Below, in pieces: positions 1 through 43,822 of a stretch of 64,000 nucleotides of DNA. A program made the translations under genes and the position numbers. The first letter of the stretch is position 1; every line of letters starts with the position of its first letter. The stretch lies in contig NW_020846086.1 of the NCBI RefSeq assembly GCF_003704095.1, forward strand, positions 372,001 to 436,000, given 5' to 3'. The DNA is from Pocillopora damicornis. Taxonomy: Eukaryota. The notes beneath the pieces were generated by a model. The model saw only the letters and a program-made list of their open reading frames with translations. It was not told where the DNA came from and searched no databases.

Positions 1-307
1 AATGGAGCTTTCAAAGCTGTTGGAACTTTCAGAAACACAGATCAAAATATGGTTTCAAAATCGCCGTACTAAATGGAAGCGGAAGCTTGCCGCTGAGATG
101 GATTACGCCATTGCTGCCCAGGGATACCTGTACCCTTCACACCCGGCGTGCCACGGGCCGAAATGCCACTTTGAAAGTAGTTCAACGCATTCCAGCCGCA
201 TGCAGCCATCATTCCTTTCAGTTTTCCATCCACCTATATTCACGAATTCATTGAAACAGTCAACAAGGGGCTATCCGCTTTCAAATTTCAGCTCAGCTTC
301 ACTTTAG
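1..307 (+). CDS. Nedx: 3' end of an ANTP/NK-like homeobox gene, most similar to the Nedx (next-to-distalless/lms) family; runs off the left edge
   Basis: Homeodomain helices 2-3 [27 protein letters not shown], followed by LAAEMDY and a Pro/His/Ser-rich tail; stop at 305-307. [18 protein letters not shown] matches the Nedx/lms signature as I recall it, and the gene lies next to Dlx. HMX and NK6 are the alternative family assignments. Confidence 0.75.
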
Positions 308-3300
308 GGACAGCTAATAATAATATTCAAGGCCGTGTCGATATTTTACAAACTCTCCTTAGCATTTCGTTTTAAATCTGGTGTTTAAGATAAATGATAA
401 CGTTCTGTACCTGCTGTAGAAATGCCAGATCATCAAAAACTTTGACAATAATACATTTTAAATTGGTATTAACTTCAGTTTCTCCAGGTGACGATTTCGG
501 TCCAGGAGAATATATCACGTGCCAGCTTCTTTCAGTGGAATATCTTTACAAACAACAATCAAATTGAAACAACAAAAAGTGTTTTCAACAGTAAATCACG
601 AAAACTGTAGATAAAGGTAAAGCGTTCGCATGTTGCATAAAAGATAAGGAACAGTTTGTAATCAAAGGGTCCTTTGTAATAATGGTGTCGTAAACTATTC
701 AAGGAAACCGTATAACTGCCATTTTAAACTTTTCCACCGAATGTGATTTAGTTTATATTGTTCACATTCGCTTTATCCTACGATAAAGTAAACTAACGAA
801 CATTTACAAGAGCATGTTAAATTTACAGATAGTTATTAAACACGCATGGGATAAGTTAATTGAGCTTCAATGATTAGTGTGTGAGCTCGTTTTCGTTTTG
901 TTAGATTTCATAATTAAAGCTTAACACAAGCCGACGATTTTTTAATTAAAAATGGGCAAAATAATTGTAGCTCATGGCAAACACACTTCAAATATTGAAT
1001 TATCTCTCCCTTATGATCGCCGAATTATGAAAAAGCAAGTATGCGTGAAATTATCTAAGTGCCATTGGCGACAAATTAAATTGGGCTGTTTATAGGATCC
1101 CTTTCTTTGTTATGACAAAACATCGGTCCAACAAAGACGGCAATTCCAATTAAGCGCTGGGTAGAGCAGTGTTGTTTTAGATTCGGTTAAACGGCAACGA
1201 AAGAAATCGGGAAGGACAGTTTTTAGTTCTCAGGTTGTTTGTGCACCATCAAAAAAGTGCGTCTTTGCCAGGGACTATAAAGGCAACAATCTGATAATTC
1301 CAATTAATTGACTAAATAAGGAAGCTATCAAGAGCAATAAGCCACATTCGGAGAACCTGCGAGGTCTCTCTGAAATACAATAACGAATACAAATGTCCAA
1401 CGATTAAATCTTTTTCCACATCATCGCCCTCTCACCAAGATTAGATCAATCTCTATACCAAAAGTAATATGTTTTCGGCAGTGAACTTTGATGTTCCGCA
1501 GGCTTGTTAAGTTTTGAAAAGCAAACAATCTCACCCATGCTGAATGGTTAACAGTGTGTGGTGCAATTAGAGGCGCTGAAAATTTGTCTTCAAAGGTTTC
1601 ATTTATTAAGTGCTTCCTTTAAAAGCTGTTAAGAGATCACAAAATGAGTCACGGCTAAAAGTAAAAACATCCGTTGGGTTTAATTGCAACAAGATGTCGA
1701 TAATCTGTAGGCAGACTTCGAAGTGTCGCTGTTAGGCTTGCAGGCGATTCACAAACCACTTTTGGACCTATTTAAAATCCACTTATTTCACTCGACAGTT
1801 GAGTGTCAGGTGAATAATTATTAAAAACTGCGAAAATTTAGACTCATTTAACGGAACCAAACAGGGCCACTGAACTTGATTCTCCTTTGCCAGGGACTTG
1901 GTGGATTAACACCTACTTTAAAACATCACGACAATGCTTGTGAGAATAAATAGCATATTCTAAAAGTTTGAATGGACATACACTGTAGGATTACCGAGTT
2001 CTCACGGATGGTTGGTTTCAAGCAAATCACGCATCACGACAGGTGAGTTTCGCATGCAAAGTCGCAGAAATCAGTTCAAGCAGCATTCTGACATAAGATA
2101 TGTCATGGATTCGTCCATTACAATAATCTTTTTTATGATTTTGGGGATGAAAAGGAGTCTTTCTCTTACGGTTGGTTCATTCTTTTTAGAGATCAGTAAT
2201 GAATTAGTGATGATTCGGCTTCGCGGCGGCTCTTTAATTTTTTTCCTTCTTCAACATAAACCACTCTTCCTCAACAAGGGGGTCCTCTTCAGTGGAGGAG
2301 TTAGTGCAGGTTAGCCAATTTAGAATTTCCGGCCAGTGAAAGCCACACAAATTCAACTGCTGCCCCAAGGTAAAAAGAGCACCACCCAGCCACAAATACA
2401 GATGATGGCTAAAAAAAAGCATGTTTCATAGAAAATGTGTACATTAACTCCCACCCTCTGTCCCCATGGCTACGGTTGCTATGGTTAATTCCAATTGCAC
2501 AAGCTTAAGCCAATGGTGAGCGATCATCGGGGTGGGGGTGCCACGTGTTCAATTTAGAAAGGAGTAGTCAAAGACTGATGCAGACTGATGCTCACAAGGG
2601 AATTTATCTGAAAATTGTTTACAATATGGTTAGAAAACTGGTGTTTCCAAATTCGGTGCCGGGCGTAAGCGTGTCGTATGCTATCCTCGTGCACAATCTT
2701 GAGATGTGTAGGTAAAGACATTGAAGCGTGGCAAAGTTAATTTTTTTTTACTCAAAAATCGAATGGTTCATATCTGTACGTTCGACGAGAAATGAAGCAC
2801 GTGGGAAGTTTTGTTTAAATAGTGCCACAAACAATGCCGTCGATCAAATAATGAACTCGAATTGACTTTGGATTGGCTTTCAACTTGAAAATCGTTTCTG
2901 GAACCAACGAGACACACAGCAGGAATAGGATGAATATCTCACAAGCCTCGTTTTTTCGTTACTAACATTGAATTTTGATTTGTTTTATGGCCCAGGCTGT
3001 TCACGCCTTGAACCAGGAATTGAAAGGGGAAAAACTCGGTCAAAAACGCATGGTACAAACGGCAATCCGTCGATTATTAAAAGGTATCGACTCGCTGATT
3101 TGGTGTTTATTCGAATACAGTTGTCAATAGGAAAGGTACTCATGCAAAAATTTGTCATTTCGTTTTCCTTACAGAGAGTGTGACATTTTGAGATCTTTGA
3201 CAGTAACAAATCGATAGTAAGGTTAAAAATCTTTAATAAATAAACTCAAGAAAAGACGCCCATGTATTTGTTTAAAATGTTTATATTCCTCCCTTATTCA

Positions 3301-4819
3301 TTATCAGATGAGATTTGACGTGGTTCTGAAACTAGATGGCTCCAAATGATCACCGCACCTCGGTTATGGAGCCTATCAGCTTATCGACGGCTACACTCTT
3401 TCCAGGATGCAGGCGAGTTGGTTGGCAATCTGGACTACTACAGTCGTTTACTTGCAAACCTTCAGTTAAAGCTCGTCACTCGAGATGAAATTTGTATTTA
3501 AGGTGACTTATCTCTGTCGATGCATATAAATATATATAAATATATGAATATATGATATATACATACTGAGCGCATCATTTTTTAACTTTTCTGCCAAAAG
3601 AGGAAAAACAAGGAAATCAGCTTTTCTTTTGAATGGCCCTGAGGAAGTTGATTGTCTGAATTTTAGCACCTTGTGTCTGTAGTTTATGTACCAAATTTAG
3701 GAATAACAATCAGCATGAGTTTCTAAAACTAATGCGTAGGCTACAAAGACAAAAAAAAACGGAAGTAACTAAAGGATATAGGAATAGAAAGCTGAAAAAG
3801 CTGGGCAGCTGTTGACTAATGTTTTTGTCTAAAATTCTCTTTTCCGTCTTTATAAATTTCCGTTTCTTATTGTTTCATTTCCATTTATCAGATTATTGTA
3901 ATGATAAATTAATTTAATGTTGAGACTTTTTTGGAGCTAGGGAGATGTTTGTGCTTTGAGGCCATGAAAAACATGATTCTATTCTATTGTCTCAGGGCTA
4001 ATGATGGCTTCAGTCTGCTCCCAATTATTCGAACAACTGGCAACAATAACTCAAGTTTCACGTTAGCTCAAGTCTTTTTCTCTCAGGCCATTTTCTATAT
4101 TTTCTATCGACTTTTATCGCGAAAAACACAAACGGAGGCCTTTAAGAGAATCTCAAAGAGGTGATGACTCTTATGGCTAACAGATACGGTTTTGGTCAAT
4201 TTACGGCTAATTGTTATTTAGAGTCCGTTGCGATTAGAAGACACATTTTTACAACTAACTTTTATTACGACTACATATTTTTCAGTTCTCGTGCTTTTCT
4301 TTTTTACAGCTTACGGTTAAACCCATTAAGGTGTAACCACGGATAAAAAATAGGAATTACGGATCCAGAGTTCCCAATAACAACTTTGGATCTTTACTAA
4401 TAACTTTGAATCGATTGTTATAGGTTTGGATCCGAAATAGGTTCCAATATCCACTTTTTTCTTTCATTTATGGGGGGCACTTACAGGCCACCGAGCGAAT
4501 CAGGTTTGTCTGTGAGTAGCAAATCAAAACGAACAACATTGAACAGCACTCTTTTTTCCTTCATATTTCTTTTTAATATTGTTCTCTTTTTTTACATTAC
4601 GCACATGCACCAGTTTAGTTCAGCGCGTGATACAATTAACACTACAATATTGCTTTACTCTTTCCACCGTATAGATGTTCCATTTCACCCAACAATATTG
4701 GTATCAAGTTTAACTGAAAGGAACACTTTGTTCTTGGTTCCAGTCTTTTCAATTGCCGAGATAACTCGAATGTTAATCAGTTTTCTGTAAAGATTTGAGT
4801 TACATTGAGACCACTGCGT

Positions 4820-5108
4820 GAAGCAATTTTCAAAGGAGTATCGAAAGTAATTCGTCTTGCATTGTTTTTACTTTACTTTGTTCCGTGATTGGTCCAGAAA
4901 ACCCGCGCCGCTTGCTAACCAAACACAGTACTGTCAGTTCAAAACTTAAATCTTATGGTGATTTGTGGTCACTCGCTCGAGGCTAGACAGTTTCCCTGTT
5001 TTTATTTTGAGTTCTGATTGGCTCAATGTGACGCTTTCATTTGGTCTTATTGACTGTTGTAATTATTGTTACTTAGGTTTAGCGAGACTCAATCAAAAAA
5101 CGCTTTAA
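4820..5108. repeat. Degenerate interspersed repeat (MITE-like); related copy at ~37625-37930
   Basis: Imperfect inverted ends AAGCAATTTTCAAAGGAGT / ACTCAATCAAAAAACGCTT and repeated TGATTGG motifs shared with 37625-37930. Confidence 0.45.
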
Positions 5109-8100
5109 TGAGATTCCATTGGATTTTTGCTCAACGTTGACACGCGCCCCAGCGTATTGTTTTTCTAGAAAATTTTTACGTGTTCGCTTTTCTATGTCAT
5201 TAAAAGCCATCAAAAGGCGACGAGAAAGGCTCGGACTATAGTTTGCTGTTGTATATATTAAAGAAAATATCTTTGTTATTAAGCTAAGGCCCCACGAAGG
5301 GAGGCGCTCGCCAGTGATAATTTGGCTTTGCCTTTGATTTTCTTCAATTTTCTTCCGTGAAATCCCTCAAAATTTTCACAGTTTGTGAAAATTGTCCTGC
5401 CAATCATTTAAAAGCCGAAAAAAAAAATAGGAGTTATAAAGGCTGTTTTCTCGCTATTTGCAGTTTTGTGTATTCTTCCTCTATCTCAAATTTGGTCTTA
5501 TGAATTTTTTTATTAACAGGCGTTAGGAAGGACACAAATATGCTTAACGGTCTAGCAAATCTAGCAAATTCCACCGAAGGAAACGCGAGAAATTCTATAG
5601 ATCCCTATTTTCTTTGTCGCCAAAAGTTATGAAATGGAATAGAAATTTGCCAAGATCGGTATATGAGCATGCGTAGACTTTCGAATCGCGGACCACGAGT
5701 ATTCGTTTGCCATGTTTGTTTCGGACTTGCAAAATTCTTGGACATCAAACACAAGCAGTACTGGGCATCAGTGGCCCTGTATTCTATGGTTTCTCCGTGC
5801 AAGATAATAAAGTATATACCTTTAAGCGACTCATTTCGAGGAATCTTTGCAAGCATCATCGAAATACTGCACTATGGCAAATAAAATTCTCATAGAGCGT
5901 GTCATTCGCTTATTATGGTTGTAAAAATGAAAAAAATTATTCATATTTACCACGCTTACAAAGTAAACATTCCTTGAGGCCTTGTGAAAATGTTTGTATA
6001 TCAACCACTAGAGTTCCTTGTAGATCTTTAGCTACCGTCTGTTGGTGGAAATCAGAACCACTTTTGAGACCTAAACTTCGCGATCGATCAAAACGATAAT
6101 TTTTATTTTCTGATGACGCAAAAAAGCAAATATCCTGAACATCGTGGGTTACTTCCCGAGATGACCGTAGAGCCTGTTTTGTAGGTGGTTCTTTTTCCAC
6201 ACAGCCATCTTCGTAATGCAGTTTTCGTTGACTAAATTTCGTAACCTTCACTTAATGATTCCTTCGTTGTTTTCTTTAATTTTAAAGTCCTCTTGAAGCG
6301 ACCGAACGCGCCACGGGTGTTGCGTTGGCCTTTTTCAGGCGTGAAAGGCCTATAAATACACTGGGTGTCGTTGCTGGAGTTCCCAGAGTCCATAATGTGG
6401 ATACATTTTTTTTTTTCACAACTCTTTTGATATGAATCGTGCGATCGTATCGAGCCGCCATATTTGTTTTGTTTAGCGACATTTTTAAAGCTCGCACCAT
6501 GTTCGGGTCCAGATCTCGCGCGGTCAAGAAACCCTATGAAACCACCTTGTAAAGAAGTACTTCATGGGTTGATTTTCGACTAGAAGCTGATCGTACAAAG
6601 ACGAGGAGGGGCTGGCAATTTAGGCTGGCACTTTAAACTACAGCTTGCCGAAACTGATTACTTCATTTTATTTGGTAGGTTTTCATGTCAACTTTTAAAA
6701 AATTCATGATCGACTCGCCTGCTCTGCTGAAAATGTAAATAAAAAGTGCGTGAAACTGCTTAAGTTGCTTTAGAAACTCATAATTTTTTGCTGTAATTTT
6801 AAACAACATAAATGCTGACATGCAATTTCGAAGACATTTTATTATCAGTGAAGCCTGTGTAAACAATCCGAGCTTAAAAATTACTATTAATTGTCATGTT
6901 AGAGATCATGATGCAATCTGACGAGAGGAGTATTGTTTTGTTTTGTTCTATTTTGTTTATTTTTGTTGTTGTTATTTCAATTCATTTTTAGACTCCACAT
7001 TGTGGATTTATCTGTCTTCAAAACTCAATTGCACCTTTTGTGAATTGAATTTCATTTTGAATCTTGATTAAATTCGACATATTCGATAAATTTCAGCTTC
7101 TTGTGTTAATACAAGTTCTTCAGAGATAATAGCCTACACGTCACTTCTCCGTGAATGTCTCCAGAATTTACCATTCATTTTCCACCAAATTTTCAAAGGA
7201 CATGACCAACTTGTGAATGAGTATCTATTGTCAATTTCATTGCCAGGCCGAACATGATCCCATACAATATATCGTGTAACAACCACGGGAAGGGAAGAGA
7301 GGGAGCGGCGTCCAACCTCTACCTTCCCTTGTACGTCCAAGCGTAAGCAAGCTCGAGGTATAATATACTGTCCGTTGAAGAGATAATCGTTTTATTCAGG
7401 CAATATCTGTTCATTTATTTATTTGAAATCTTAATAAAGAGTATTATCAGTATAGGTACAGTATGAAGTGCAGTAGGTGTTGTTTCAGAAATGACTTTAT
7501 TTATAAGTATACTCATATGTTTATGCAAGGTTCGTGCTCTTTGCGAGGAACCTTCTTTTTTCTTTGTGAAATTTAATACCCTGTTTTAGGAGTAAGACTT
7601 GAAAACCATGCCCGCCATAGAACTGTTTGGGGAAAATGTAGAAGTGCCATTCTAGAAGTGCCATTCTCTCGAAAGCAATTTTTAACGGTCAATTTGCTCT
7701 TTGAAATCCCAAAAGGTAACAAGCACTTAAATCTCTTATACGCTTTCTAACGGGAGATATAAAAATTATATCAATTGTTTCTTAAGCATTAATTTTCTTT
7801 AACACAAATGAAAAAGGATTATCTAGGCCGTGACTCTTTACGCAAGACAAGAAAATTAAAGCATCAGAAGATCTTTCTAACTTTTGTTCGTATCTTCAAA
7901 AAATGTCAAATCTTTCCATACCAAAGTCTTTGAAAGTCGAGCATAGAAAATGCTAAATACGTTAAATATCTCTATGAGTAAATAGATAACTGTTTTCACC
8001 TCAAATCAGCCTGCAGGAAAGGCGAATATACTTTTATAAAGCTCTCAGAATACCACCAGCGAAAATAAGAGTGAAATTATTTACACTCTTCGTTTTTCTT

Positions 8101-11100: not shown

Positions 11101-14100
11101 TAGTTTTGTCATCGAAAGGCTATTTTGGAGATAAGATACATTTGTTAAACACACAGGAAATTGCTTAAACATCGGCAAAGTGGTTTCCAAAACGCCCAAA
11201 TTTCCCTTAAAATGTTATATGGGAGAAGTGAATGTTGCTCTTAATTAACTCCGTATATGTGTTGGAAACAAAGATTTCTGTCTTTTAAGAGCATAACACG
11301 CAGTCGCCAACTCCACCCAGGTATTATTCCATATTTGTCTGACGAAATTATCTTTAATTTTACCCTTGCCCAATTGAAACTATCAACGCGAATTAGCCCC
11401 GAATACCACTTTTGGCTAACAAAACGCCAACTCAATCGGTTCTTGCCACTTTGGAGCCATTAAAGGATATTTCAAATTATCTTTCTATCTGTATTCATGG
11501 CTAATTATATGCGAAAATTGCGTCTTGACGGCCATTTAGTAATTAGTCCATTAAGTCGACAGGCGGAACAAAGACAACATGTAGAGGGAATTAGCATTTG
11601 AACAAAACAGGCAGGCATGGCCTGTGGTCGTTTTTACATGAATACGATGGCAGCCCTTTCCCTCTGAAAGAGAGAGAGATATAATAAAAAACTTAGCTGA
11701 TCCTTCTATAGAAAGAAAGCATTCATCTCGCAACAATGAAGAACGGCTGGTTTTGTTTTGTTTTTCTTTTTAGAGTCGAGTGCAAGGAAAAGATAAGGAT
11801 AAGTTATGTGCCAATGGGTTTGAATAGAATTTTGAAGTGTCTTAAGAGTCGATATAGCCTAGAGATAAAAATATATATAACAAAGCTAAGCAAAGATTAA
11901 AAAAAAAAAATTGGCTGCAGGTGTTTTGGGGAGACATAGATTTCCAATGCTGAGTTCGTTTAAGGCTTTGTAGCTTTTCTCAAATTGTACCAAACGGAGA
12001 CGACAAAAACTCAAATTATAAACCTGAGTGTCATTTTCCAAGACTAATTAACCGCAGTGGTGTATAGTTTGTTATATTGTGAGTCTATTATTCTTTCAGC
12101 TTTTTGACGCGCAGAGTTTACACAAATCCTTTCTTTTGATGGCGAACAAAGCAAAACAGTCAGTAAGGAACTTTTCAGCGCCTTGCGTTGTATAAGTCAA
12201 CCATGTTTTATTCAGTGTGAGGTGGTAAAAGTACTGATCCAGTTCAACACAAATCAATCTCGCTCTTAACGAGCAAAAGTGCTAAAGATCCTTTTTATTG
12301 TTTCTCAGTGTTAATATGAAGTTATCTCGATACGCTCGCCTTGATATTAACAACAATTTGCCTCAATTAAACCTCTTCTCACCAAACAAGTATTCAACAT
12401 GAAACTGTACTGAGTGATATGGATAGCTGTGTCATCAATTTAATGCTGAGAAGATCCATCATATGCATTACGTGTAAACTCGAGAATTAATTATTAATAC
12501 AAAATGAGGAAGCAACTCTTTCCCCTTTAAATTTATCCTATAGATCATATATAGAACTATATTCATACCACGAACTATTTCTTGTGCATTTGCACTGAAA
12601 ACCACCAATTGGCGTTGCGTGAGTTTTTCTTTCTGTTTCCGTCTCTCTATTTCCTCCTTTTAGATAACAAAGATTAGGCTATTTTAATGAAAACTTCTTT
12701 GCGTAATCTCTTTACCAGTCAATTATAGACATTCTTGATGTACACACTCGAGCGACTCTTAATCATTTGGTATAGCCATGAAATATATATATTGCAATGG
12801 CGTCGCTATATTTAACAGGAATTTTCAATTTGAAATTGATGGAACTAAGTAAATAGCTGTGATAAAAATACCTCCCAGCAGATGAGAAGAATACTAACCT
12901 CGTAGATCTAGCCGGTATTATATTGTAGTAATGATATCATTCTCGTATTTTTGATCGGTGGAATTTTGAGTCTGAACTCCAACCTTCAATTCACGCTGAC
13001 ATTTCGGTAAAGGGAAATATAACCAGCTCGTCTACTTCCTCTGTATATTTGCATATCTAATAGCGTTTACCCTCAAGTTCACTAGTAAACATTTCCTTAA
13101 TTTACTTCCTGTTAAGATGAAAATAAATTCCATTTTCACCTAATTTAACAAGCCTTTGCTGTCTTATTCTTAAGAAGTGCAGTAAGCGACAAGATTTGTC
13201 CTCAATGTTCTAGGCTTGATGGTAATACTGAAAGTTATTCTCTACCTGCAGATATTGTGTGTTCTTTCGTTCCTTTTTTTTTTTCGACGGTATCCGAGGA
13301 CAACTTCCTTTGTGCTGAAAAATCTAGAAATTATCAAGTCTTCACACGAGATGTATAAAAATAGTTTATAAAACTGCCGCAAGGTGGCGGTCAAGTGTTT
13401 GAATGACCTAACAGGTCCAAAGAGACTTTTAGCATCTTCCGCAAAGTTTGAGTATGAGGAATATCAAATATTTATAGCCGGAATTCGGAACTAGTAGAAC
13501 CACCTCGAAACATTAGCTAGTTGGGTTCGCCCGAGAAATAGCGTTCGTCAAATGAAAAGTAATGGGGAGGTATTTTTTTTTTGTTCGAAATCATTCACAT
13601 GTAGACAAGACACATATCCAACACAAGAAACAATAACACGACACAATAGACAGTCAGTGCGTATTCAGATTATGTTGGTTTTGATAATGGTTGTACAATC
13701 AAGTCTCTCAAACCGAAATATTGTTGAATTTTTCTTCGTTAATCCATCAGAGCGATAACTGTGTTACTGAAAATTCTTGCGGTTGCAATGTGTGACGAAC
13801 CGAGCGTTAGAATTGATATAACCATCGTTCTTATTTGAGCGCACCTCGGTGACCGATATTTTACTTCTGTTTGCTTGTCGTAAATCATCGAGATCCAATC
13901 CAAATAGTAAGACAATGAAGTCATCATTGTGTGATGACGATATGTTTGTATAATAATCGAGCACAGAACAATGAAAATATCTCTTTGAAGCCCCTGACAG
14001 AAACAAGAAAAGTAAACACAAGGGCCATTTTTAGAGCCGTTTTTCTCGCACATGCTTGTCATTCAGAGGGCGTCATAGCCGTGTCGAAACGGACCAATCT

Positions 14101-14879
14101 GGTGACAAGAGTGCGAGCTACATGATAAATAACAGCACAAAGCCCCTTATAACTTGATAACGGGTCTTTTTATTCACTTAACAGATGGTGTGGTATCACT
14201 AAAATGTTATTGATACTCTTTTAAGAAATGAGAGCTTTAAAACGATCTCGTGGCGTTTCACGTTATACGTCAACGGCCGGTGGCACGCGTAGCATGCGGT
14301 TCTTTGAGGAATTGGCCCGTGGGTTGAAACGAAGTTGAAAGCGACGCGACTCAATTAAGCCAAGGGCATTTCTACAGTTTTAGTTTGAAAATTTTCCTCA
14401 CTATATTGGAAAATAAATGTCAATAATATCAACTATCGCATTTAACGTGTTCTAAGAACTGTTTTCTTGTCCTACCTTTGGGAAAACAGCATTAAACATC
14501 ACCTGTTATGCGGGCTAATTACCTATTGATGTTAAAAAGTCTTAATGCCTCAATCACGTTCGGTCTAAGCATATGTTACATGAATAATCTCAAGAACTCG
14601 ACTTCAGTGAAATAACTCCTTTTCAAGTTTACACTATGCCTGCTTAACGTATCGCACGAATAAATTATATTTACAGAATTAAAACCTCTTTAATGTTAAC
14701 ACGATTAAAATTTCATAGATTGGACCTTTCCTTGTAACATCAGAGGACTTGCAAGTACACACGTTGCTGATTTTTTGGCAACCTTATCCTTGAGTTAAAG
14801 CAAGGCTCGGTACATTATCTACGTTTTATACATATGATTATTTATCTTTACAGTTAGGTAATTCGTAAATATGAGTTAA

Positions 14880-16014
14880 TCACATTCTTTGGCATCGGTC
14901 TGCGGGGAAAGGAGACTTTAGTCCACTTGTAAGACACCATTGGCTCAAATTTGGTCCTAACTGTATCGTCTGTTTAGTGGTCGCTAAAGCGGCAAGGCTT
15001 GGACTCTCTGTGTCATGACTTCCAGATGTTGATACGTCTGTATTTGACCAAGTTCCTGAGCTGTTTGATGGGCTTGCCGTGCTCTCTGATTTACTAGTCT
15101 CTTCACCTGGACTGTCTTCGTTCACTCTGGCGCTGTGCTTCTTAAACTTAGATCTTCTGTTCTGAAACCAAATTTTCACTTGGGTCTGCGTTAGGCCGAG
15201 GCAGGCAGCCAAATCAGCGCGTTCAGGTAGAGCTAAATATTGTGTCTTGTTAAATCGCTTGGTGAGCTCCCGAAGTTGAAAGCTGGAGTAGATGGTTCGC
15301 GGCTTTCGAATCTTTTTTCCTTTGCCGTTTAGCCTGGGTTCATCACATGTTCCTTTCAAATCTGCGATGGTAATGTGTTAAAGTATGTTAAAACTCTCTT
15401 AAGAATTACAAAAATAACGGCTTCAAATGATGGATAAATTGTATCATTTTGCCTTTATACTTATCAAGCAAAGGGCTAGGAAAAAATTTTACCAGTCAAT
15501 TTTCGACTAATTTTGTTCCATTTGACAATACAGTTTAACACTTCGAGCTTATATTATAAGAATTTTGCGACTCCTTTAACTTCACTAATTTTTATTAACT
15601 TGGGCAACCACAAGCGGATTGTGCGCTAAATCACTTCCGAATCTTCTTTGAGTAACTCATGCCTATCACTAGTAAACAACGTAAATATTCCATAGTCTAC
15701 GTACCATCGTGAGGAGAATCGTGAGGGGATCCAAAGCCTTGCATAGAAGGCGATAAGTATGGATGATGCGACAGCGGATGATGGTTCAAAACCGGCGGCA
15801 TTGGAAAGGAGCTTCTGGCATTGCAGGCTAACGAGTACTCTTGGTTCGCTGGAGGGTGATGGTAGTAGCGCATCGCAGTGTACGGGTTATAATTCGGCGG
15901 CACTGGATTATAGCTGGAGTAGCTATGCGGCCCCGGTGTTGACGGCAACTCCATGAAGGCGGATTTGCAAGGCGCAGGAGGTTCAAAGTAGTCGGCTTGG
16001 AAGTTGAGGTTCAT
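14880..16014 (-). CDS. Dlx: Distal-less (Dlx) homeobox protein, 2 coding exons (16014-15705, 15361-14880), ~263 aa
   Basis: Exon 1 contains the Dlx N-terminal KSAFMEL motif and a Pro/Tyr/His-rich region. The phase-1 intron has GT at 15704 and CAG at 15364-15362. Exon 2 contains [64 protein letters not shown], a diagnostic Dlx homeodomain. Confidence 0.97.
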
Positions 16015-16169
16015 GTGGTAGCGATAACTGCAGAACGACTCAATTATAACAACTCGTGCTCGCAGATGTGACAAATTGATAACTCGCCGTGTTCGCAACC
16101 TCGATATGAGACCAAATGGCCACCTGACTGGCTGTTAAACAACAAACTTTGGGGGCACGCGTGCTGGTC

Positions 16170-16270
16170 TGGTTAATATGTATATATTGCGGAGAGGATT
16201 CTTGCAAGAATGGCTTATGCAAATCTAATTGGCTGTTATGATAATATGGTTCTAATTACATTGTATTTTA
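16170..16270 (-). promoter_or_regulatory. Candidate Dlx core promoter
   Basis: On the minus strand there is a TATATA near 16181-16186, a CCAAT (plus-strand ATTGG ~16228-16232) and TAATT motifs, 170-250 bp upstream of the Dlx ATG. Confidence 0.35.
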
Positions 16271-19200: not shown

Positions 19201-22200
19201 CCTGCAAAAAAATCTGTCATTTTTAGTCAATCATACAAACAATTCTTACATTTTGAAATTTTTATTACAAGTTTTCGTTTTTTGGAGCAGAAGTTGACTG
19301 CAAAAAAAATCTCAAGCTGACATTGAATAAACTGACAATATAAGATAAACAAACCTTGTGACCTTGTTTGAGTTTCAGTGTGGATACAGATTTTAACCCA
19401 TTCGGAGCCACAGTTAGCTAGTAGCATTTCCAAACGGACGAAATCCACTGTTTCACGCCATTTATCCATCTTAACATGATCCTGTTGAACAGTTCTCAAA
19501 TTTCATCTTCAGGGTTCGTGTTAGGATACAAAGCTTGATCGTTTGATGAACCTAATGAAACTCAACCTTGCAGATCGATGATACTGTGATGCACTTTCAG
19601 TTTAGATATCAATGCGAATTATCGACTTTAAATGCTCAAACTTAGGAGGCATTTTTTAACGATAGAAAATTCTTTATTTTATGTTTTAAAGGCGAAAATT
19701 TGAGGCGTTTTTAGCTCTGAAAAGTTGCTCAAAATTGCCTTAAATCTGGCTATTTAGAGCTTTGGAGATAGCTTACGGTCGCATTACTTAAATTATCCTG
19801 TAGTTCACGCTACCCTAACTATTCAACTACTTTCAGATGGTGTTTTACCCATGAAACATCTATTACTCATTTTGTTTTCAAAAACGAAGGCGTTGAAAAG
19901 ACTCCTAGCTGCTTCTTTACATAATCAAGTGCTTCGTTCTTTAAGGATTTGCTGGCTTTGATGGTTAATTAATATGATGACACTTGCATTTGAATAGAAG
20001 TTTCAAACTTGTTAATTTTTGGATCATTTATTTTCTTACTTGCGGTGATAAGCAATTCAGCTTTGAATTCAACTCTCTCGAGGTCTCAAACCTGCCAACA
20101 TATGGTTTCAAATCAGATTTGTAAAAGTCACGAATAACCTGTGAAATTGCTCCAAAGATAGCAATAATTTTCAGCCAGAATTTTGGATGGGTCGACTTAA
20201 GGCTGTCCCTCTCAAAAAACGAAAATGAGTATCGGCTTAATCTAAATGAAAATATCTTTTCTTTTTTCTTTCCTCTTTCGAATTTCATTCTGAACATCTA
20301 ATAACTTACTTTTCGTTTTTTTTTTTTTACATCTTGAAGGCTATAAGTTCATTCTATACAGTCTGTTTTGGGCGATAACAAGTAATTAAATGCAAATTCA
20401 GCTATGATACCGCTTGATGAAAAAGCAAATGTCAATTTAACTTTGATGCTCCCGATTACTCACAATTTCCTTTCTACATACAATCTTTCTTTGGAAAAGA
20501 GAGATCTCAGTATGTGACGATTCCACCAAATTCCTTGATAAAATCTCCATGCCATATAATAGGGTTTAAAACTTTAAATTTTTTCCTAAATTCCTCCCTA
20601 CCTTCTGACAAATCGGCATCAATATAAGAAAAAATGAAATTCAATAATCCGGTTTGACTTCGATCGAAATGAACAATCTGCTCCGAGAGATGAACTTTAT
20701 TGTCCGTGGGATTTGATTTCATTGAGTCTCGGATACCTTCAATTTGGATTTTTTTCCTGATGAGTATGTCTGAACTTTAGGTGTAATTTCATACAGGGCT
20801 AGATATACGCACGATTTGTAAGCGATACTGATCGGTTTGATGCTTTTTGTGCGTAATTAGTCATTGATGCAAAAACTTTAACGCACTTTGAAGATCGTGA
20901 GGTAAGATGGTGTGTCTTAGCGCAGAACAGAAAATTAACTTTGGTTTAAAATGACATTGTGATTAAGGCGTCACTCAATTGTCTTCTTGATCAGAAGTTA
21001 CAGATCCCAACTGTTGTATTATGTTCCCAGTTTTAGGCAAGATACGAATGATACGGTTCGTAAAACTCCTGTTTTCGTGGAATATGAATGCACTTTAAGT
21101 TGCATTTTGAATGAACATCATCAGTATTTTCGGACAGATTGTAATTCAAATCGTGCCACCTTCCTTACATATTGCATTTGACAGATCTTCAAAAACACGT
21201 AGTATCTGGCGTTTTCACAGATCAGTCCCTCTACTAAAAGAAAAACGCAAGAAAGAAGGCTGAAATACAAAAATTTCCGCAAATTGGGACTAAGATTCCT
21301 TTGAACCGGTCTGAATGAACTAAAAGGTATACAATTGCTATGATATTTTGTTTCAGCTTAAAAAATGCAGCGCGTATGATATTCAAACAGCCAGCCAGTT
21401 GAACAAAAGTTTTCGAATAAGTCGGCGCTCAAAATTGGCCGAAAAATTCTAAGCAGAGTCTGTATAATCTTTTTATTTATTTTTTTATTTGCTTTGATGG
21501 CGGAGAGAGGCTTTTTCATTTACTTTTTTTCGACTTTTGACGCGTTTTTTTTGTTCCAAGAAAAAGGCCATGATTCTTGTGATGAAACCCAGTATTATAA
21601 TGCCTTCGACGCTCTTCCTTCAATAATAATTCGAAAAAATCAAATTCTCCTCAGTGGTAAGGAAAAGTAGCTTTAAAAATGTTTTGAAATTGAGCAGACA
21701 TCTTATGAATGGAAAATTTTACGTAAAGTGCAGGTGAATTGAAATTTTTAGAGCAAAAATATTGCGTTAGTTTACATGAGCGCCGCGGCCTATACAAGAT
21801 CACATGGACTAACAGTGATAGCCAGAGGCATGGGAAAGCCCAAATTGCAGGAGAGCGCAAGCAAAAGGTGTTAAATAAGATTTTTGTTCTTTTTAACGCC
21901 TTTTTTTGAGTTATTTATTTCTATTCTCTGATGTTCGGAAATATAGATTTTAAGCATGATGATTTTAATCACGCCATTAGGACAGCACTTTTCCAAAGAC
22001 GGCGCCAGATAGCTTTTCTGGAAAAAAATTTGATCTTGTCGTAAAATGACAAAATTATTGTAGCCGACGAGAAAATAATTTAACAACAATTGTTAATTGT
22101 TTGAAAGATGATAAAGAAGGTTTAAAAAAACGAACTCTCTGTAATGAATAATTTTCAATGAATTTCAGCTGAATGAGTTCTTTTGCAAAACAGAATTTTC

Positions 22201-22883
22201 CGTTATTTTTAAAAAGTTCTTGACAAAAATACTGAAAACCCGTAGAAACATTGACTCCAAATTTATGTGACTTTTTTTCTTCAATGTTCTTTTTTAAAAT
22301 GATAATACTGAGTTAATTGCTTTTTCTCTTTAGGAAGGTACTTGATTACATCACACGCTAGGCTACTGGCTGTTACTGCAATTAAAACTCTTTATTATCA
22401 AACGACAAGTACAGAAGGCGACTAATCAACTGCCTTTATTCAAGAATAAATGAATGAATAAAACTGAACCAAAATATATTAGCAATATTATAAAATAGGT
22501 TTATCCTGCGATAGCGACCTTTTGCGAGTGTTTTGTTATTCCAGAATATTTTTTTATCGAGATCTGCAAGACAAACAATTACGAACCCTTAATTTAAGCA
22601 TTTTCCGACAAATACCGGATGTTTGTCGACAAGGTAATTGTCTGAAGTCTCATTTCTTGTTAGATAGCAAATTACAGAAAGTCTGCACTCGACTTCTGTC
22701 AATTTGAGTTACGACGGAGTTAATATGGCGCCATCATCACCAGCATACCACTTGTTTCTTCCATTTTAATGACTGGTTTAATAAATTTACTAAAATTAGA
22801 GCACCTGTCGCCTTTGTTTGGCAATATGTGTTGTACAACAACTTTAATTTCTGCATTATCTAACCTCTTGGAGCGGAATACTT

Positions 22884-23079
22884 AAGCACTACGACACCCT
22901 TTCTATCGGTTTACCAGCGTAATAACCCACTTAAGATGTTGGAAAAAAAAAACACTTAAAAAGTTTGTAAACTACTTGCCTCAGGCCTCTAAAATTACAA
23001 CTTCTTGAGTGTCTTCTTAATATCCCAAGTGGGTTATTACTGACACCAGTAAACAGAAATAAGTTGTGGTCTATTGCTT
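22884..23079. mobile_element. Foldback/palindromic MITE-like element
   Basis: Perfect 14-bp inverted arms GTAATAACCCACTT (22919-22932) / AAGTGGGTTATTAC (23027-23040) inside longer imperfect inverted arms ending AAGCA.../...TGCTT. Confidence 0.7.
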
Positions 23080-24884
23080 TATAGAACAAAATTCAACTTT
23101 TTTGTGGGTTTACCCGTGCAATAATCGATAAGCTTTCGACCATCAGGGCGCTCGTAGTAAAGCTCCTTGCGCGCCCGCGTTACATTAGATGATAAGCGAT
23201 GCACTTTCAGGTGGAGGTAAACAGGGAAAGAAATACAAAGAGACGGGAGAAAACAATAACTGAACCCTTGATCTGCCAAACAAAAGAGAAGTTAGTTATC
23301 TTCAATCACGTGCGTCAAGGTTCAGTCAGAAAAAGGATAAAGAATTCAATTTCCAATTAATTTTTCAGGGAATTGTCATCGAGTAAGAGTAGTGCGATGT
23401 CGCTCTCTTTCGTGACAGAGAGAGAGCGACCAGACAGTGCTTTGCTCTAAACTCTGTTTACAAAACTCATAATTAAGTAACCTCTAAGTACTTTTTCAAC
23501 GATGACGACCTTGATTGTCTACCGAAGATGTTAAAACAACCACTAATTACTGTTCTGATGATATTCATCGTTGTCACCACGTAAAAGAAAAAATTATTTT
23601 TAAGCAATTAGTTTTCTTTAACAATAATACAACAATGCAGTTTCTCCGCACCAGTGTTCATTTGTGTGTTTTTTTTTTTCGTATGTGTGAGTAAAGGAAC
23701 AAAATTCTGCGTAACATGTGGTCAGTTGTGTAAACTACAGTTTCAAATGAGATGCTCTTTTCCGTGCCCTTTTTTTGAACCCGTGACCTACAAATCGAAT
23801 CGGAGTTTTCAGTAAATCTGACCAAACTATACCAAACGCCCCGAATAACTGCTTTTTATTATATATACAAAGTTGGTAAATATTGACACGACTAACAATT
23901 TTGATGCATGGTTTAAGTGATTTTTAAGATGCACTCTTGCTACGTAATAGGGAAGTATGCAACACCATAACGATCATGTTTAGGAAACAGTGCAGGAAAA
24001 CATTCTGTTTTGATTTAGCCGCAGCTACAATCGCTTTTAGCGGGTTTCTAAAAATACCTCGGTGCCTTCTCAGTTCACAAAAAGCTGCTAACGATGTAGA
24101 ACTATGCTCAAAATCTTAACCAACAAACATCGGACCAAAACGAAGGGAACAGTGCGATGCAAAACCATAATCAAAATTTTAACCGACAATCATTTGATTC
24201 CCAGGGAAAGGGAGGGTTTTCGATGTTTTTTTTGTTGAAAAAGGTGTTTTTAGTACCTATACAGTCTGCGGCTGGTTAAAACACGAAAATACTCTTATCC
24301 TTTCGACCGCTAAAAATCTTACACCAACTTGACTGACTAAGTTACCTACTTGTGCGTAGCAATAAACTATATCGTTAAAAATGGAAGATTGGTTGGTTGA
24401 ATTTTACATTCAGTCTTCAGCTTAATCCATATAAAATTACAGGTAACATTCGCGGGTGATCTTAAATTGTCAAAGAGAGCAGAAACGTGCCAACAATTAA
24501 ATGGCGGCGAGCAGTGAAAGGACTCAGCGTGAGATTTAAGGATGTTTCATTTGAGGAAGAATCACCTGCCATACTTTCTATGTGCATGTGTCGTCAAATT
24601 ATTTGCAATTGTTCCGTTTGTAATAAATAGGCTAAGACTGAAAGACGACACGCGTAATTCTAACTGTTAATTTTACATTTTTATGTTGAAAATGGATCTG
24701 GAAACTTAATGGGAGAAATTTTTTTGTAAACAATGACATGCAGGTTATCGTTTTTTATTGGGGAGAATTTCTTAAGACTGATGTCGCTCGATGTTTCTAT
24801 AATATTGCATGCTATCAATTATCAAAGCATTGTGATTGCTTTTTTTTCGTAAAATATTTATTTGACCGACATTTCGTTTCAGTC

Positions 24885-25107
24885 TAGTCTTTTCCAGGCG
24901 TTCAGTGCGTGTTATACAAAGCGCAGTAATAGACAGTGCTATAGTAACAGAGAGTGAAAAAACGAGGGAGGTTTGGGACGAGTCTTGTAATGACCACGAT
25001 CTTTACCCGTTCTGACCCAGATCTTGCTCGCTTTTTTAATCCCTTGCTACTGTCGTGCCGTTTGTTACTTCGCTTCATTTTACTAACTAAACGCCCGGAA
25101 CAGGTTA
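24885..25107. mobile_element. MITE-like element with ~22-bp terminal inverted repeats
   Basis: TAGTCTTTTCCAGGCGTTCAGT ... ACTAAACGCCCGGAACAGGTTA, imperfect TIRs bounded by TA. Confidence 0.6.
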
Positions 25108-25743
25108 TTTGTAGCGAAAACGGAAAGGTTGGTTTTCAGAAAATCTTGAACGAGCTCGCTTTGAAAAAATACCTTGCGTACATCAGGGAAGCTGATTGTA
25201 ACTGAGGATTTGAGTAATTTGTGCTTAATTAAGTAACATGTATTGCAAGTGTCGGAGGCGAATCCGGCATGTGTATTCCTTATAATTAAAAAAAATTCCA
25301 GGCACAGTTTAGACGGTGACCTGAGTGGCTTGAAGTCAGAAAAAAAACTGATGGATACTAAAAGAAAAATATAACGAGTTAATCTCGAATATTTATTGAT
25401 TATTGTCATCCTTTTTCCGCAGGAAAATTCCTGCTTTAATTTTGCATAATTGGGTCAATTACATTTTTTAAAAAATAACATTGTACATACATCTGCTACA
25501 AATATATCAATAGCAACAGTAGTCCAGGATGAACACGTGGATTGCATCAGTTACCACAGTGATATCCAAGTAATCCGTTAAAAAAGTCTTCATCCGCGAC
25601 AATAAATTGACATGAAAACATAAAACTTGCAGACGAATTCTCAGTAAAATGGCCAGGATTTTACGAATGGGATCTGTTCAAGTATTATCGGCCCTCCGGC
25701 TCAGAGATACATATTCTTTGTCATGTTAGCGTTTTGTCATTGG

Positions 25744-28234
25744 CTAAAATCCCACGTGAGAAACATGCGCTGTGGGGTAAGACAGCTGAGGATGGCAGAG
25801 AACCGGTGAGAATCCTGACTGACAGTAATTATATGGCATGTTATTACCAGGGTGACAGTGTTGGTTGCAATGATGAATTCCCGGATGGTGGGGACCATAC
25901 ACGTTCCCGGATGATCTGACACTAAATTCCATCTCTGCCGCTATTTTTCTTTTCCATTTGGTCCGGCGATTTTGAAACCAGATTTTAATTTGTGTTTCGG
26001 TCAGCTTGAGAGATTTTGAAAGCTCTGTTCGACGAGAAATGGTCAAATATTTGCTTCTGCGAAATTCGCCTTCAAGTTCTTTAACTTGTGTTGTGGTGAA
26101 AGCCGTTCTTTTACGCTTCTTTGACGGATCTCGGCATCTTCGTCGCTCTCTTGAGCTGCTTTCTTGTTGTATAACTGGAAGAGAAGAATGATTTTTAATT
26201 TAGCTTTCGCTGGTACCTTTTACTTGACTTGCCGTTTTGAAATATTGTCCCTAACCTTTTTTACAAGAAGCTGCCTTCTGATATCTCTTTTCTTTTTTTT
26301 TAGCTCGTTGAAAACTCTTGTACATATTGGAAAGTTCTTTTAATCCTTTCACTCCCAATTCTCCCCCCGTCTGCCATTCAATTCTTATGATGTTGGTTTG
26401 GAGAATTTGATATTGGATCAACTAGCAATCCCCTAATAGATATTTAAGTTTATTCTCACCACTTTTCTTCTTGATATTATATTGATATTGTAAGGAGAAA
26501 TTCTGTCTTGGTCGCTCAAGGGAGTTGAAGGGTTAAATATGGTTTGTTAGGATGGATTAACACCAAAGAGGCAGAGAAAAAAAAATAAACTAATAAGGTA
26601 GATGTTAAAGAAGATTAACACGAGTTATTGATTTCAGCCGAATTGCTCGAAATGGCCAAACTGAACATAGAGAATCAATATACTGATAGGCTAAGGTAAG
26701 AGAATGTCTTAAAGCTTCGTAACTCCTTAAATGGGTAGTTAATTTCGCTTAGCTATCAGAGAACATCTTCAGTATACAAGTGATGAGAATTAAGAAATAA
26801 CAGCAGGATTGTTTGATTAACACAAATCTAGAATTCTCGGTACTAAAAAATTTATTGTAAATGTAAAGGAAAATTAATACTGAGATCCTGAGATCGAAAA
26901 CGGTTGACATGATAATCAGACCATTACTTGATGCACCATGAAATTTATCGCCTCCATAAATACTTGAGGGAGATTTTACAAAGTTGAGAAAACCTTATTT
27001 CATCACCACCCCTGAGGTCTGAGGAAATTGTTATTCATTTTACACATCTGATGTGAAAGAGCTCTTACACTTTCTTTACACCAGAAGTGCCCACACCGTG
27101 AGAAAAACTGTAATACTTCACTTCCTAAAAACATAAACTTGAACAAATCACCGCTGAAAACAGAACACGTTTTAAAGAAACTGAACAAAGCTTGCTTTTA
27201 AAGACTTCTGCGAAAAGATTTGCACAGGTCTGCCAAATATTTATCTGAAATATATATTTTTTTAATTTACTAGTAAGAGACGTTTCTTGATTTCAGTCAT
27301 TTAAATTGCCTGTAGCCTTAAATGCTATTCTGCCCAAATAAAACTAGCCTACTGCATGAAAAGAAGCGGCATGCTTTGTTGGTCGAAAATCCATTGAAAA
27401 CCGAGGACCGCAATCGAACTATAACCTTCCTAGGTTTTTCTTCCCTTTTTATGAGCTTAACCGTACATTCCTTCAAAAAACCCCGCAGAATGAGAACCTC
27501 CCCGAAGTTCTGCGTTCCCAGATTACCATAAGTCCATTTCGTGCGACTTCTTAAAGATAATTGCCACGTTACACGATATTCTCTAAATAACTATTATTTT
27601 TCCATGAAAGGATAGCAATCTTATGCTTGAAAAACACCAGGTCACATATAAATTGATAAGATCAGTTTCCAGTTATGAAAAAAACTAAAACTATTTGTCG
27701 TTTTAATTCCACTTCTCAGAAGTCTTCAGGGAAAGACAGATATTGATTTAAAAAAAATAATAAACTTCAAAAGAAGCCTATCCGTCAAACGAGGTAAATC
27801 TCGTTGCTTAAGCGTTCACAATTCGAAGATAATATGACAAGCAAGGCCTCCTCAACTCACCTCCAACAGGCGTCATTTGTAATCTTCCCTTTGAGGTTGG
27901 TTGACAGAAGTATTAAATTTTGTCGTTAATAAATCAGTTATGCTTATCTAATTCGTGGCACCTAATCGGTTCATTTAAGGTATTCTGATCTCTTACCGGT
28001 TGTTTTTCGTGATCTGTCGAACGGAGGGCATGCATGTGGCTGATAGTGCTGCCATGTATTCAGGCCGCCGTAAAGGAATGGAGGACATAACTGAAAGTCT
28101 CGCTGTACACTCTCGCTTACGTTAGCTGGAAGTTCAAGTTTTAAACTTGTCGGAGCTTCTTCTCCCTTGCTACTAAGAATGTTATCTATTGAGAAACTGG
28201 AGGATCTGATGAAAGCTGTGGATTGAGCTTCCAT
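25744..28234 (-). CDS. Nedx: Second Nedx-like (NK-like ANTP) homeobox gene, 2 exons (28234-27997, 26174-25744), ~222 aa
   Basis: Exon 1 [20 protein letters not shown] carries an eh1 repressor motif (FSIDNIL). The phase-1 intron has GTAAGA at 27996 and CAG at 26177-26175. Exon 2 gives the full homeodomain [58 protein letters not shown], followed by IAAEMEF. Confidence 0.85.
26340..26536. mobile_element. TTAA-flanked (piggyBac-type) MITE in the Nedx-b intron
   Basis: TTAA-TCCTTTCACTCCC ... GGGAGTTGAAGGG-TTAA terminal inverted repeats, ~197 bp; internal similarity to the copies in RETSAT introns. Confidence 0.75.
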
Positions 28235-30706: not shown

Positions 30707-31031
30707 GTTTGTCAAAGTTTTTTCAAGTGCATTATGTTTTTGATAACAGTGGATTGATTCTGGAACTCCATCCTTTGCTATAATTTCCATGATCCACTTT
30801 AGTTTACATTATTATACTTGTAATTATCGGTGTGTTTTAATTTCAGCAAGCTCAGTAACGCTGTAACTTTCTCGGTTCTTTTGTCTCTATGTAGGCCGGG
30901 GAGGTTACCTAGGAATAGTGGCCGCTCCTTCGCCACGCCTCAGGTTCTTCTCTGGTATCCAGGACCTCTCGAGCGTGACAAAACCATAGCCCATGATGCC
31001 TTACGCGCAATCGGAGTAATGAGAAACAAAC

Positions 31032-43266: not shown

Positions 43267-43822
43267 GGTTGAAATTTGAAAGTCTTTTGAACTCTGTAAG
43301 TAACCAAAGATAATTTTTCAAAACAAACGAAATTCGTCAAGATGATGAGTTTGAAATTTGGTGACGTCACAGTTATGTTTTCATATAAGTGGCTTAATGT
43401 GTCAATTAGGAACACGCAATGTCAGTGAAGGAAGTTCAGAGAGAGAGAGAGCATTGGAACCGAGGTTGGCAATAAAACTTCACTTACTTCCAGCTTTTAC
43501 TTCGTTATTTTTGTCAGCCTTTTGAAAAAATAGCCAGGAAAATAAAGCATGAAAGACTTGAAAAAATAATGTATAATTCTGCTCCTTACGTTTGTCAAAA
43601 AAAAAGAAAAACTAAGGAATTATTTTCCCCTTTTTTTCACCCACCATAAAAAAAAAATCCCCGCCGTACCCTACTTTATTTTTCTCGTCGCAGTCGCTGA
43701 CGTGTCAAGGTACTTTCTGCGCATGTAAGAATGTTCCCTCTGCGCAAGCTCAGTGAAGCATAAGGTAAAATCCAAGATGGCGGATAGTCTGGTGGTATTG
43801 ATCGAATGAGATGAACTAAAAA
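43267..43822. promoter_or_regulatory. Divergent (bidirectional) promoter region between plastin and GOLGA4
   Basis: The two ATGs are head-to-head, ~556 bp apart. The region contains a palindromic CRE GTGACGTCAC (43361-43370), TGACGT (~43698), an NRF1-like TGCGCATG (~43718) and a YY1-type CAAGATGGCGG (43773-43783). Confidence 0.6.

What the first reader, a model, noticed from the sequence alone, without database searches (positions are those of the whole stretch)
1..28234. Nedx-Dlx-Nedx homeobox cluster: Dlx sandwiched between two inverted Nedx-like paralogues
Seen: the arrangement is Nedx-a(+) -> <- Dlx(-) <- Nedx-b(-) within 28 kb, and I could support no other gene in between. Known: Nedx was named for lying next to Distal-less in bilaterians and has been lost in vertebrates. 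Inference: if this is a cnidarian, the Dlx-Nedx linkage predates the cnidarian-bilaterian split, and an inverted duplication placed one copy on each side, possibly because the genes share enhancers.
Basis: partly seen in the sequence, partly recalled or inferred. Interest (0 to 1): 0.7.

Follow-up and report, generated by a model that had tools for sequence, protein, structure and literature searches.

The report
Coral Distal-less flanked by two Nedx
In this stony coral the developmental gene Distal-less sits between two copies of the homeobox gene Nedx; the Nedx–Distal-less pairing is already reported from a sea anemone, and the second copy likely comes from a duplication older than the coral–anemone split.

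Summary
Three intact homeobox genes lie as Nedx-a(+) → ←Dlx(−) ←Nedx-b(−), with no other gene found between them. Nedx-a starts before the window. Both flanking homeodomains group with Nematostella NVHD021 and a fly lms/CG13424-like sequence (96/98); grouping with Hmx is rejected (p-AU 0.004).

The headline inference is already in print: Ryan et al. 2007 placed Nematostella Dlx 6,988 nt from NVHD021, a CG13424 (Nedx) orthologue, and two Nedx copies are reported for Nematostella and Acropora.

Added here: Nedx-b is the NVHD021 orthologue (97/92). The duplication is therefore old and within cnidarians. A single-copy, 757-bp conserved non-coding block rich in TAATT[AG] lies 3' of Nedx-a.

Shared enhancers are not shown; Dlx and NVHD021 have largely different larval domains in Nematostella. 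Tandem duplication plus one inversion explains the layout as well as an inverted duplication. A real but largely known cluster relic.

The parts
1..307 (+). Nedx-a, 3' part of exon 2 (second half of homeodomain to stop). ATG, EH1-like motif FSIADIL and exon 1 lie about 1.0-1.2 kb before the window (L002 419-626)
   Evidence: RNA contigs cover parts of 1-349 in 3 of 4 runs
743..1499 (.). Conserved non-coding block 3' of Nedx-a, in the Nedx-a/Dlx interval; the part to about 935 may be 3' UTR; candidate enhancer (inferred)
   Evidence: 563/792 columns identical to L083; longest stop-free frame here 49 aa; 1 match in G000; TAATT[AG] 7 against 1.7 in shuffles, 1 of 1000 reach it, 0 of 37 other tiles reach it
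14166..14879 (-). Dlx 3' untranslated region as covered by RNA contigs
   Evidence: table 8
14880..15361 (-). Dlx exon 2 with homeodomain (R19/E30, Q50)
15705..16014 (-). Dlx coding exon 1
   Evidence: joint 15361/15705 in 4 of 4 runs
25744..26174 (-). Nedx-b exon 2 with homeodomain (E19/R30, Q50); orthologue of Nematostella NVHD021
26357..26537 (.). Dispersed repeat of about 180 bp in the Nedx-b intron; not part of the system
   Evidence: 1850 candidates in G000, 40 scored, 83-88% identity apart from itself
27997..28234 (-). Nedx-b coding exon 1, with EH1-like motif FSIDNIL at 28195-28175
   Evidence: joint 26174/27997 in 3 of 4 runs

Best explanation
This is a three-gene homeobox cluster, Dlx flanked by two Nedx (lms/CG13424) paralogues, and it is likely a relic of the old Nedx-Dlx neighbourhood in which Nedx was duplicated before corals and anemones split. 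Shown: identity, structure and order of the three genes in this genome, splicing of Dlx and Nedx-b, and orthology of Nedx-b with Nematostella NVHD021, the published neighbour of Dlx. Inferred: one Nedx duplication inside Cnidaria, separate from the amphioxus duplication, plus one inversion (at the duplication or later) put the second copy 3' of Dlx and facing it; stony corals kept all three together and Nematostella moved the second copy away. Inferred function: both Nedx proteins bind TAAT-core sites (Q50) and repress through an EH1/Groucho motif. Each gene likely runs mostly on its own nearby enhancers, one of them the conserved block behind Nedx-a. The cluster likely persists because anthozoan genomes rearrange slowly and conserved elements fill the intervals, not because the genes must be co-expressed.
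For: Family: the 15 Nedx candidates form one branch, 96/98, in a 43-row tree; identity of the flanks to the other candidates 41-58/60, to all other rows at most 37/60; E19/R30 in both, as published for Nedx/Lms; EH1-like motif in both. Orthology: Nedx-b with NVHD021 and the Actinia protein, 97/92 under the mixture model on 29 of 42 rows, 81/52 under LG+G4 on all 42. All cnidarian rows against bilaterian rows, 95/85 and 95/95. A Pocillopora-only duplication is rejected, p-AU 3e-36. No DNA similarity between the flanks except the homeobox (68% over 196 bp) and one 33-bp match. Dlx and Nedx-b accessions are consecutive in 4 of 4 species where both GenBank numbers were listed. Nematostella NVHD021 and Dlx share a 20.8 Mb contig; its other Nedx is on a 22.0 Mb contig. 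Different larval domains in Nematostella.
Against: Order and orientation were read from DNA only in G000; elsewhere the evidence is matching contig length and accession order. AU tests do not reject independent duplications in stony corals (p 0.0504) or anemones (p 0.134), nor the crossed pairing of coral Nedx-a with NVHD021 (p 0.141). Nematostella's second copy is not placed with coral Nedx-a at 80 or more. The octocoral types switch sides between models and an octocoral-only duplication is not rejected (p 0.41). Repressor activity and enhancer function were not tested. In juvenile polyps the Dlx domain (pharynx level) and the NVHD021 domain (ring round the mouth) are near each other, so partial co-regulation is not excluded.
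Confidence: 0.7

Rival explanations
1. Shared-enhancer block: Dlx and one or both Nedx genes are driven by common elements such as 743-1499, and this constraint holds the trio together.
For: A conserved, single-copy, TAATT[AG]-rich block lies between the convergent 3' ends of Nedx-a and Dlx; 16 of 19 TAAT cores are identical in L083 against 68 of 118 other A/T-only 4-mers. The Nedx-b/Dlx pair is kept in anemones and corals. No intervening gene found.
Against: The block lies 0.4 kb from the Nedx-a stop and 13 kb from Dlx, and L083 shows further conserved blocks upstream of Nedx-a, so it may serve Nedx-a alone. Plain TAAT counts are not clearly raised (19 against 13.8; 71 of 1000 shuffles). Nematostella expression differs and its second copy has left.
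Confidence: 0.2
2. Layout by tandem duplication and later inversion: a→ b→ Dlx→ became a→ ←Dlx ←b by one inversion of the Nedx-b/Dlx block, with no inverted duplication. This concerns only how the layout arose and fits the best explanation.
For: Geometry alone yields the observed order. One unnamed 28,850-bp contig carries both octocoral-type Nedx proteins (P0071, P0107) and no listed Dlx protein has that contig length.
Against: Only 120 of 1899 Dlx hits were listed and 7 Dlx clusters expanded, so the absence is weak. No inverted arms or breakpoints survive to tell the routes apart.
Confidence: 0.45
3. Independent Nedx duplications in stony corals, anemones and octocorals, so that the sandwich is a stony-coral novelty.
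For: Not rejected by AU tests (p 0.0504, 0.134, 0.41). Amphioxus also duplicated Nedx on its own (PMC2982225).
Against: Coral Nedx-b groups with NVHD021 at 97/92, they share the RDPSKKR lead-in, and both are the Dlx neighbour.
Confidence: 0.15
4. The flanking genes are Hmx/NK5, NK6 or NK7, suggested by the Hmx-like tail KRK(I/L)AAEM after the homeodomain.
For: The genome's Hmx-like gene ends KRQLAAEME. Database names for these proteins are scattered (MSX, CHOX-7, ceh-16, Hmx-like).
Against: Separate Hmx-, NK6-, NK7- and NK1-like genes lie on other contigs and share only 26-33/60 residues; they carry E30, not E19/R30; holding both flanks with the Hmx-like gene is rejected, p-AU 0.0045.
Confidence: 0.01

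Closest known systems
Nematostella Dlx-NVHD021 cluster (Ryan et al. 2007, PMC1779807)
   Same: Dlx next to a CG13424/Nedx orthologue; NVHD021 is the orthologue of Nedx-b; spacing 6,988 nt there, about 9.7 kb here.
   Different: No further homeodomain on that 1.6 Mb scaffold and the second Nematostella copy is on another contig; here it sits 14.6 kb beyond Dlx, facing it. Orientation in Nematostella is in a figure I could not see.
[quoted passage not shown]
   Same: Nedx adjacent to Dlx; two Nedx copies.
   Different: Amphioxus copies are described as lineage-specific duplicates. No other homeobox hit lies on the 658-kb coral contig. That preprint's Figure 6 includes Acropora digitifera; I saw only its legend.
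Drosophila lateral muscles scarcer (lms, CG13424; PMC3002276)
   Same: Same family, with a putative N-terminal eh1 motif; 42-44/60 identity to a near-identical stand-in, P0363.
   Different: Single copy, a muscle identity gene at 57A; that Dll lies well away at 60E is recalled, not checked. No coral function is known to me.
Vertebrate Dlx bigene clusters (recalled)
   Same: Convergent homeobox pair with conserved intergenic elements.
   Different: Those are Dlx-Dlx pairs with tested shared enhancers; here the convergent partner is Nedx and sharing is untested.

Membership tests
Nedx / lms / CG13424 | Homeodomain groups with CG13424 and NVHD021 | tested here: met
   96/98. Anchors compared by eye with the alignment rows in the supplement of PMC1779571: every printed letter of NVHD021 matches P0045; P0363 differs from the CG13424 row at 2 printed letters. 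No named amphioxus or Drosophila record was in the tree.
Nedx / lms / CG13424 | E19/R30 salt bridge and no proline at 26 | tested here: met
   Both are E19, L26, R30; criterion from passages.
Nedx / lms / CG13424 | N-terminal EH1 motif | tested here: met
   FSIADIL and FSIDNIL near the N-termini by pattern match; expectation. Groucho binding not tested.
Nedx / lms / CG13424 | Next to Dlx | tested here: met
Dlx / Distal-less | Homeodomain groups with Dlx/Dll; R19/E30 | tested here: met
   100/100 with Nematostella, Xenopus and Helicoverpa proteins; R19/E30; the best named hits are Dlx.
Hmx/NK5, NK6, NK7, NK1 | Homeodomain groups with these families; acidic residue 30 | tested here: not met
   The labels of the genome's own genes (L006, L028, L019, L011) are mine, from recalled motifs, not from a call. 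Only the Hmx grouping had an AU test.
Shared-enhancer gene block | Conserved non-coding elements between the genes | tested here: met
   One block against one other coral; only 3 kb of the interval could be compared.
Shared-enhancer gene block | Co-expression of the genes | tested here: inconclusive
   Bulk contigs cannot show it; published Nematostella domains differ; no coral single-cell table was read.
Shared-enhancer gene block | One enhancer acts on both promoters | not testable with these tools
   Needs reporters, deletions or chromatin contacts.
Shared-enhancer gene block | Order and orientation conserved across species | tested here: inconclusive

The most novel reading that the evidence does not exclude
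The Nedx-Dlx-Nedx trio is ancestral to all Anthozoa, kept in stony corals and octocorals and lost in Nematostella, and is held by a homeodomain-responsive enhancer between the convergent Nedx-a and Dlx ends, a cnidarian parallel to vertebrate Dlx bigene clusters.
Probability: 0.15. Interest if true: 0.6.

Novelty: new member of a known kind. Interest (0 to 1): 0.3.

Why it matters
It shows that the model anemone likely has the derived, broken state and that corals keep more of the old Nedx-Dlx neighbourhood, which bears on reconstructions of the ancestral ANTP homeobox clusters. It also gives one concrete candidate enhancer to test, and corrects three genes whose flanking members carry misleading automatic names. 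The deep-time conclusion itself has been in print since 2007.

Tried and rejected
Hmx/NK identity: rejected. A recent or Pocillopora-only duplication, or a duplicated haplotype: rejected (44/60 homeodomain identity). A first tree of 134 rows did not finish its careful search and left the Nedx rows unresolved near the drawn root; it was replaced by smaller trees. One search dropped 13 of 42 rows (4 long branches or long-branch partners and 9 close relatives) after I had seen. The homologue search with Nedx-b exon 1 gave only 5 unnamed hits. The PDB search holds no Nedx. Lack of RNA cover between the genes is not used as evidence. Supplement searches for Nedx found nothing in PMC9444052 (2 files), PMC7305137 (8 files, one more unreadable), PMC6214176 (2 files) and PMC10719294 (3 files, one more unreadable); PMC7642931 had none readable. 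Earlier scan findings: none. No structure or complex was predicted; it would not change the reading.
Full report
Observation. A six-frame motif scan finds three homeodomains in the window: one cut by the left edge (+), one near 15.2 kb (−), one near 26.0 kb (−); Pfam confirms all three. The window is G000:C2721:372,001-436,000, and these are the only 3 of 71 homeobox hits on that 657,837-bp contig. The left gene was completed from L002. Two-exon models give Nedx-a 214 aa, Dlx 263 aa and Nedx-b 222 aa, matching stored proteins P0139, P0459 and P0126; each has one phase-1 intron 13-18 codons before the homeodomain. RNA contigs join the Dlx intron in 4 of 4 runs and the Nedx-b intron in 3 of 4; the runs were chosen with Dlx, so they say nothing on levels. 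The Nedx-a intron lies outside the stretch laid. None of 33 other ORFs of 80 aa or more in 308-28,000 passes a Pfam cut-off, and Rfam finds nothing. A source labels P0126 Pocillopora damicornis, on a contig of the same length as C2721.

Identity. The two flanking homeodomains are each other's closest match (44/60) among 66 extracted from the genome; the next is 37/60 or less. The supplement of Ryan 2006 (PMC1779571; passages and two alignment rows seen) prints NVHD021 and CG13424 as differences from a reference row that I did not see. Every printed letter of NVHD021 matches P0045, and P0363 differs from CG13424 at two, so I used them as anchors. In a 43-row tree all 15 Nedx candidates form one branch (96/98), the middle gene sits with Dlx/Dll (100/100), and forcing both flanks with the Hmx-like gene is rejected (p-AU 0.0045). 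Both flanks have E19/R30 and Dlx has R19/E30, the states given for Nedx/Lms and Dlx in bioRxiv 10.1101/2023.03.14.532566 (passages and section 12 seen). Both carry an EH1-like motif. Family labels for the genome's other homeoboxes are mine, from recalled motifs.

History. With flanks (100 columns), cnidarian rows stand apart from bilaterian rows (95/85; 95/95). Coral Nedx-b groups with NVHD021 and the Actinia protein: 81/52 on 42 rows under LG+G4, 97/92 on 29 rows under the mixture model after 13 rows were dropped. A Pocillopora-only duplication is rejected; coral-only, anemone-only, octocoral-only and crossed alternatives are not (p 0.0504, 0.134, 0.41, 0.141). An a-clade that includes Nematostella's second copy costs no likelihood but has no support. 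Octocoral types move between a and b with the model. The flanks share no DNA but the homeobox and one 33-bp match.

Other genomes. I had no DNA spanning the cluster elsewhere, so I used reported contig lengths. All three genes share one length in P. verrucosa (21.5 Mb), P. meandrina (2.99 Mb), Stylophora (589 kb; the Nedx-a record shows no name) and Orbicella (2.71 Mb), and on unnamed contigs of 1,404,738 and 100,258 bp; the cluster holding their type-1 Nedx includes a Dendronephthya protein. Both Nedx share a length in A. palmata (24.5 Mb, weak at that scale) and on unnamed contigs of 1,007,185, 767,814, 207,523 and 28,850 bp. Dlx and Nedx-b have consecutive GenBank numbers in P. damicornis, P. 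meandrina, Stylophora (reversed order) and Porites harrisoni. In Nematostella, NVHD021 and Dlx share 20.8 Mb and the other copy is on 22.0 Mb; in Actinia, Nedx-b and Dlx share 252,599 bp and I found no second copy in the lists. None of this gives order or strand.

Regulation. L083, whose Nedx-a matches the Orbicella protein at 100 of 100 residues, shares a non-coding block with window 743-1499 (563/792 columns). It has one match in G000, is enriched for TAATT[AG] (7 against 1.7; 1 of 1000 shuffles; 0 of 37 tiles) but not clearly for plain TAAT (71 of 1000), and keeps 16 of 19 TAAT cores. I picked the motifs after seeing the alignment. RNA contigs reach about 935, so part may be 3' UTR. It looks like an enhancer, but it is nearest Nedx-a and only 3 kb of the interval could be compared. 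Ryan 2007 reports Dlx in a mid-body ring excluded from both poles in larvae, and NVHD021 in oral ectoderm.

How it likely works. Nedx and Dlx were neighbours in the cnidarian-bilaterian ancestor (published inference). Nedx duplicated once in early hexacorals or anthozoans (inferred). One inversion, at the duplication or afterwards, gave the sandwich (inferred; the routes cannot be told apart). Both Nedx proteins are predicted EH1 repressors binding TAAT cores, with largely separate enhancers (inferred).

What is known. PMC1779807 (passages seen): Dlx 6,988 nt from NVHD021, no other homeodomain on the scaffold. PMC1779571: two Nematostella CG13424 genes. PMC7642931 (passages, Table 7): two Nedx in Nematostella and A. 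digitifera, none in the medusozoans listed. PMC9444052 (passages): NedxL and Dlx on one Exaiptasia scaffold. PMC2982225, PMC3002276, PMC6466738 (passages): amphioxus duplicates, fly lms, synonymy. PMC7305137 and PMC10719294 (passages) and PMC6214176 (supplement search only): no mention of Nedx found. Seven literature searches gave no text describing a Nedx-Dlx-Nedx order, but the library lacks most subscription papers, and figures and unread supplements of three of these papers may show it for Acropora.

Verdict. Real, correctly named, largely known. The additions are the paralogue assignment, evidence that corals keep a trio that Nematostella lacks, and a candidate enhancer. Interest 0.3.

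Noticed in passing
window 3081-3306: One RNA contig in 1 of 4 runs skips 224 bases, with GT..AG ends if the cut is shifted by 2; a possible small non-coding transcript or a deletion allele.
   Followed up: no
window 26357-26537; also about 35015-35198 and L040: Dispersed repeat of about 180 bp, 1850 candidates in the genome, drawing very deep RNA-contig cover.
   Followed up: partly
window 13876-14224: Block conserved at 72-74% in two other Dlx records (L158, L161), reaching beyond the RNA-contig end seen here; likely a conserved Dlx 3' end.
   Followed up: no
L083 6306-9705 against 0.4-3.2 kb before the window: Further conserved blocks upstream of Nedx-a and in its intron, 71-75% identity.
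   Followed up: no
L031-L034, about 8-35 kb before the window: Exons that look like ShK-domain trypsin-type proteases (recognised by eye); one also matches the far end of L083, so the upstream neighbour seems shared.
   Followed up: partly
window 31023-36889 (+), 38462-43317 (-), 41182-41724 (-), 52565-57703 (+): FAD-dependent oxidoreductase exons, a calponin-homology gene (plastin-like, my reading), a zf-RVT retroelement fragment and a 1713-aa charged low-complexity ORF with no Pfam hit.
   Followed up: partly
G000:C3543:184050-206274 (L003, L010, L005, L004): Four related ANTP homeoboxes within 22 kb that end in TKWKKQMAP or similar and fit no family I could name; an Actinia relative is P0125.
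   Followed up: no
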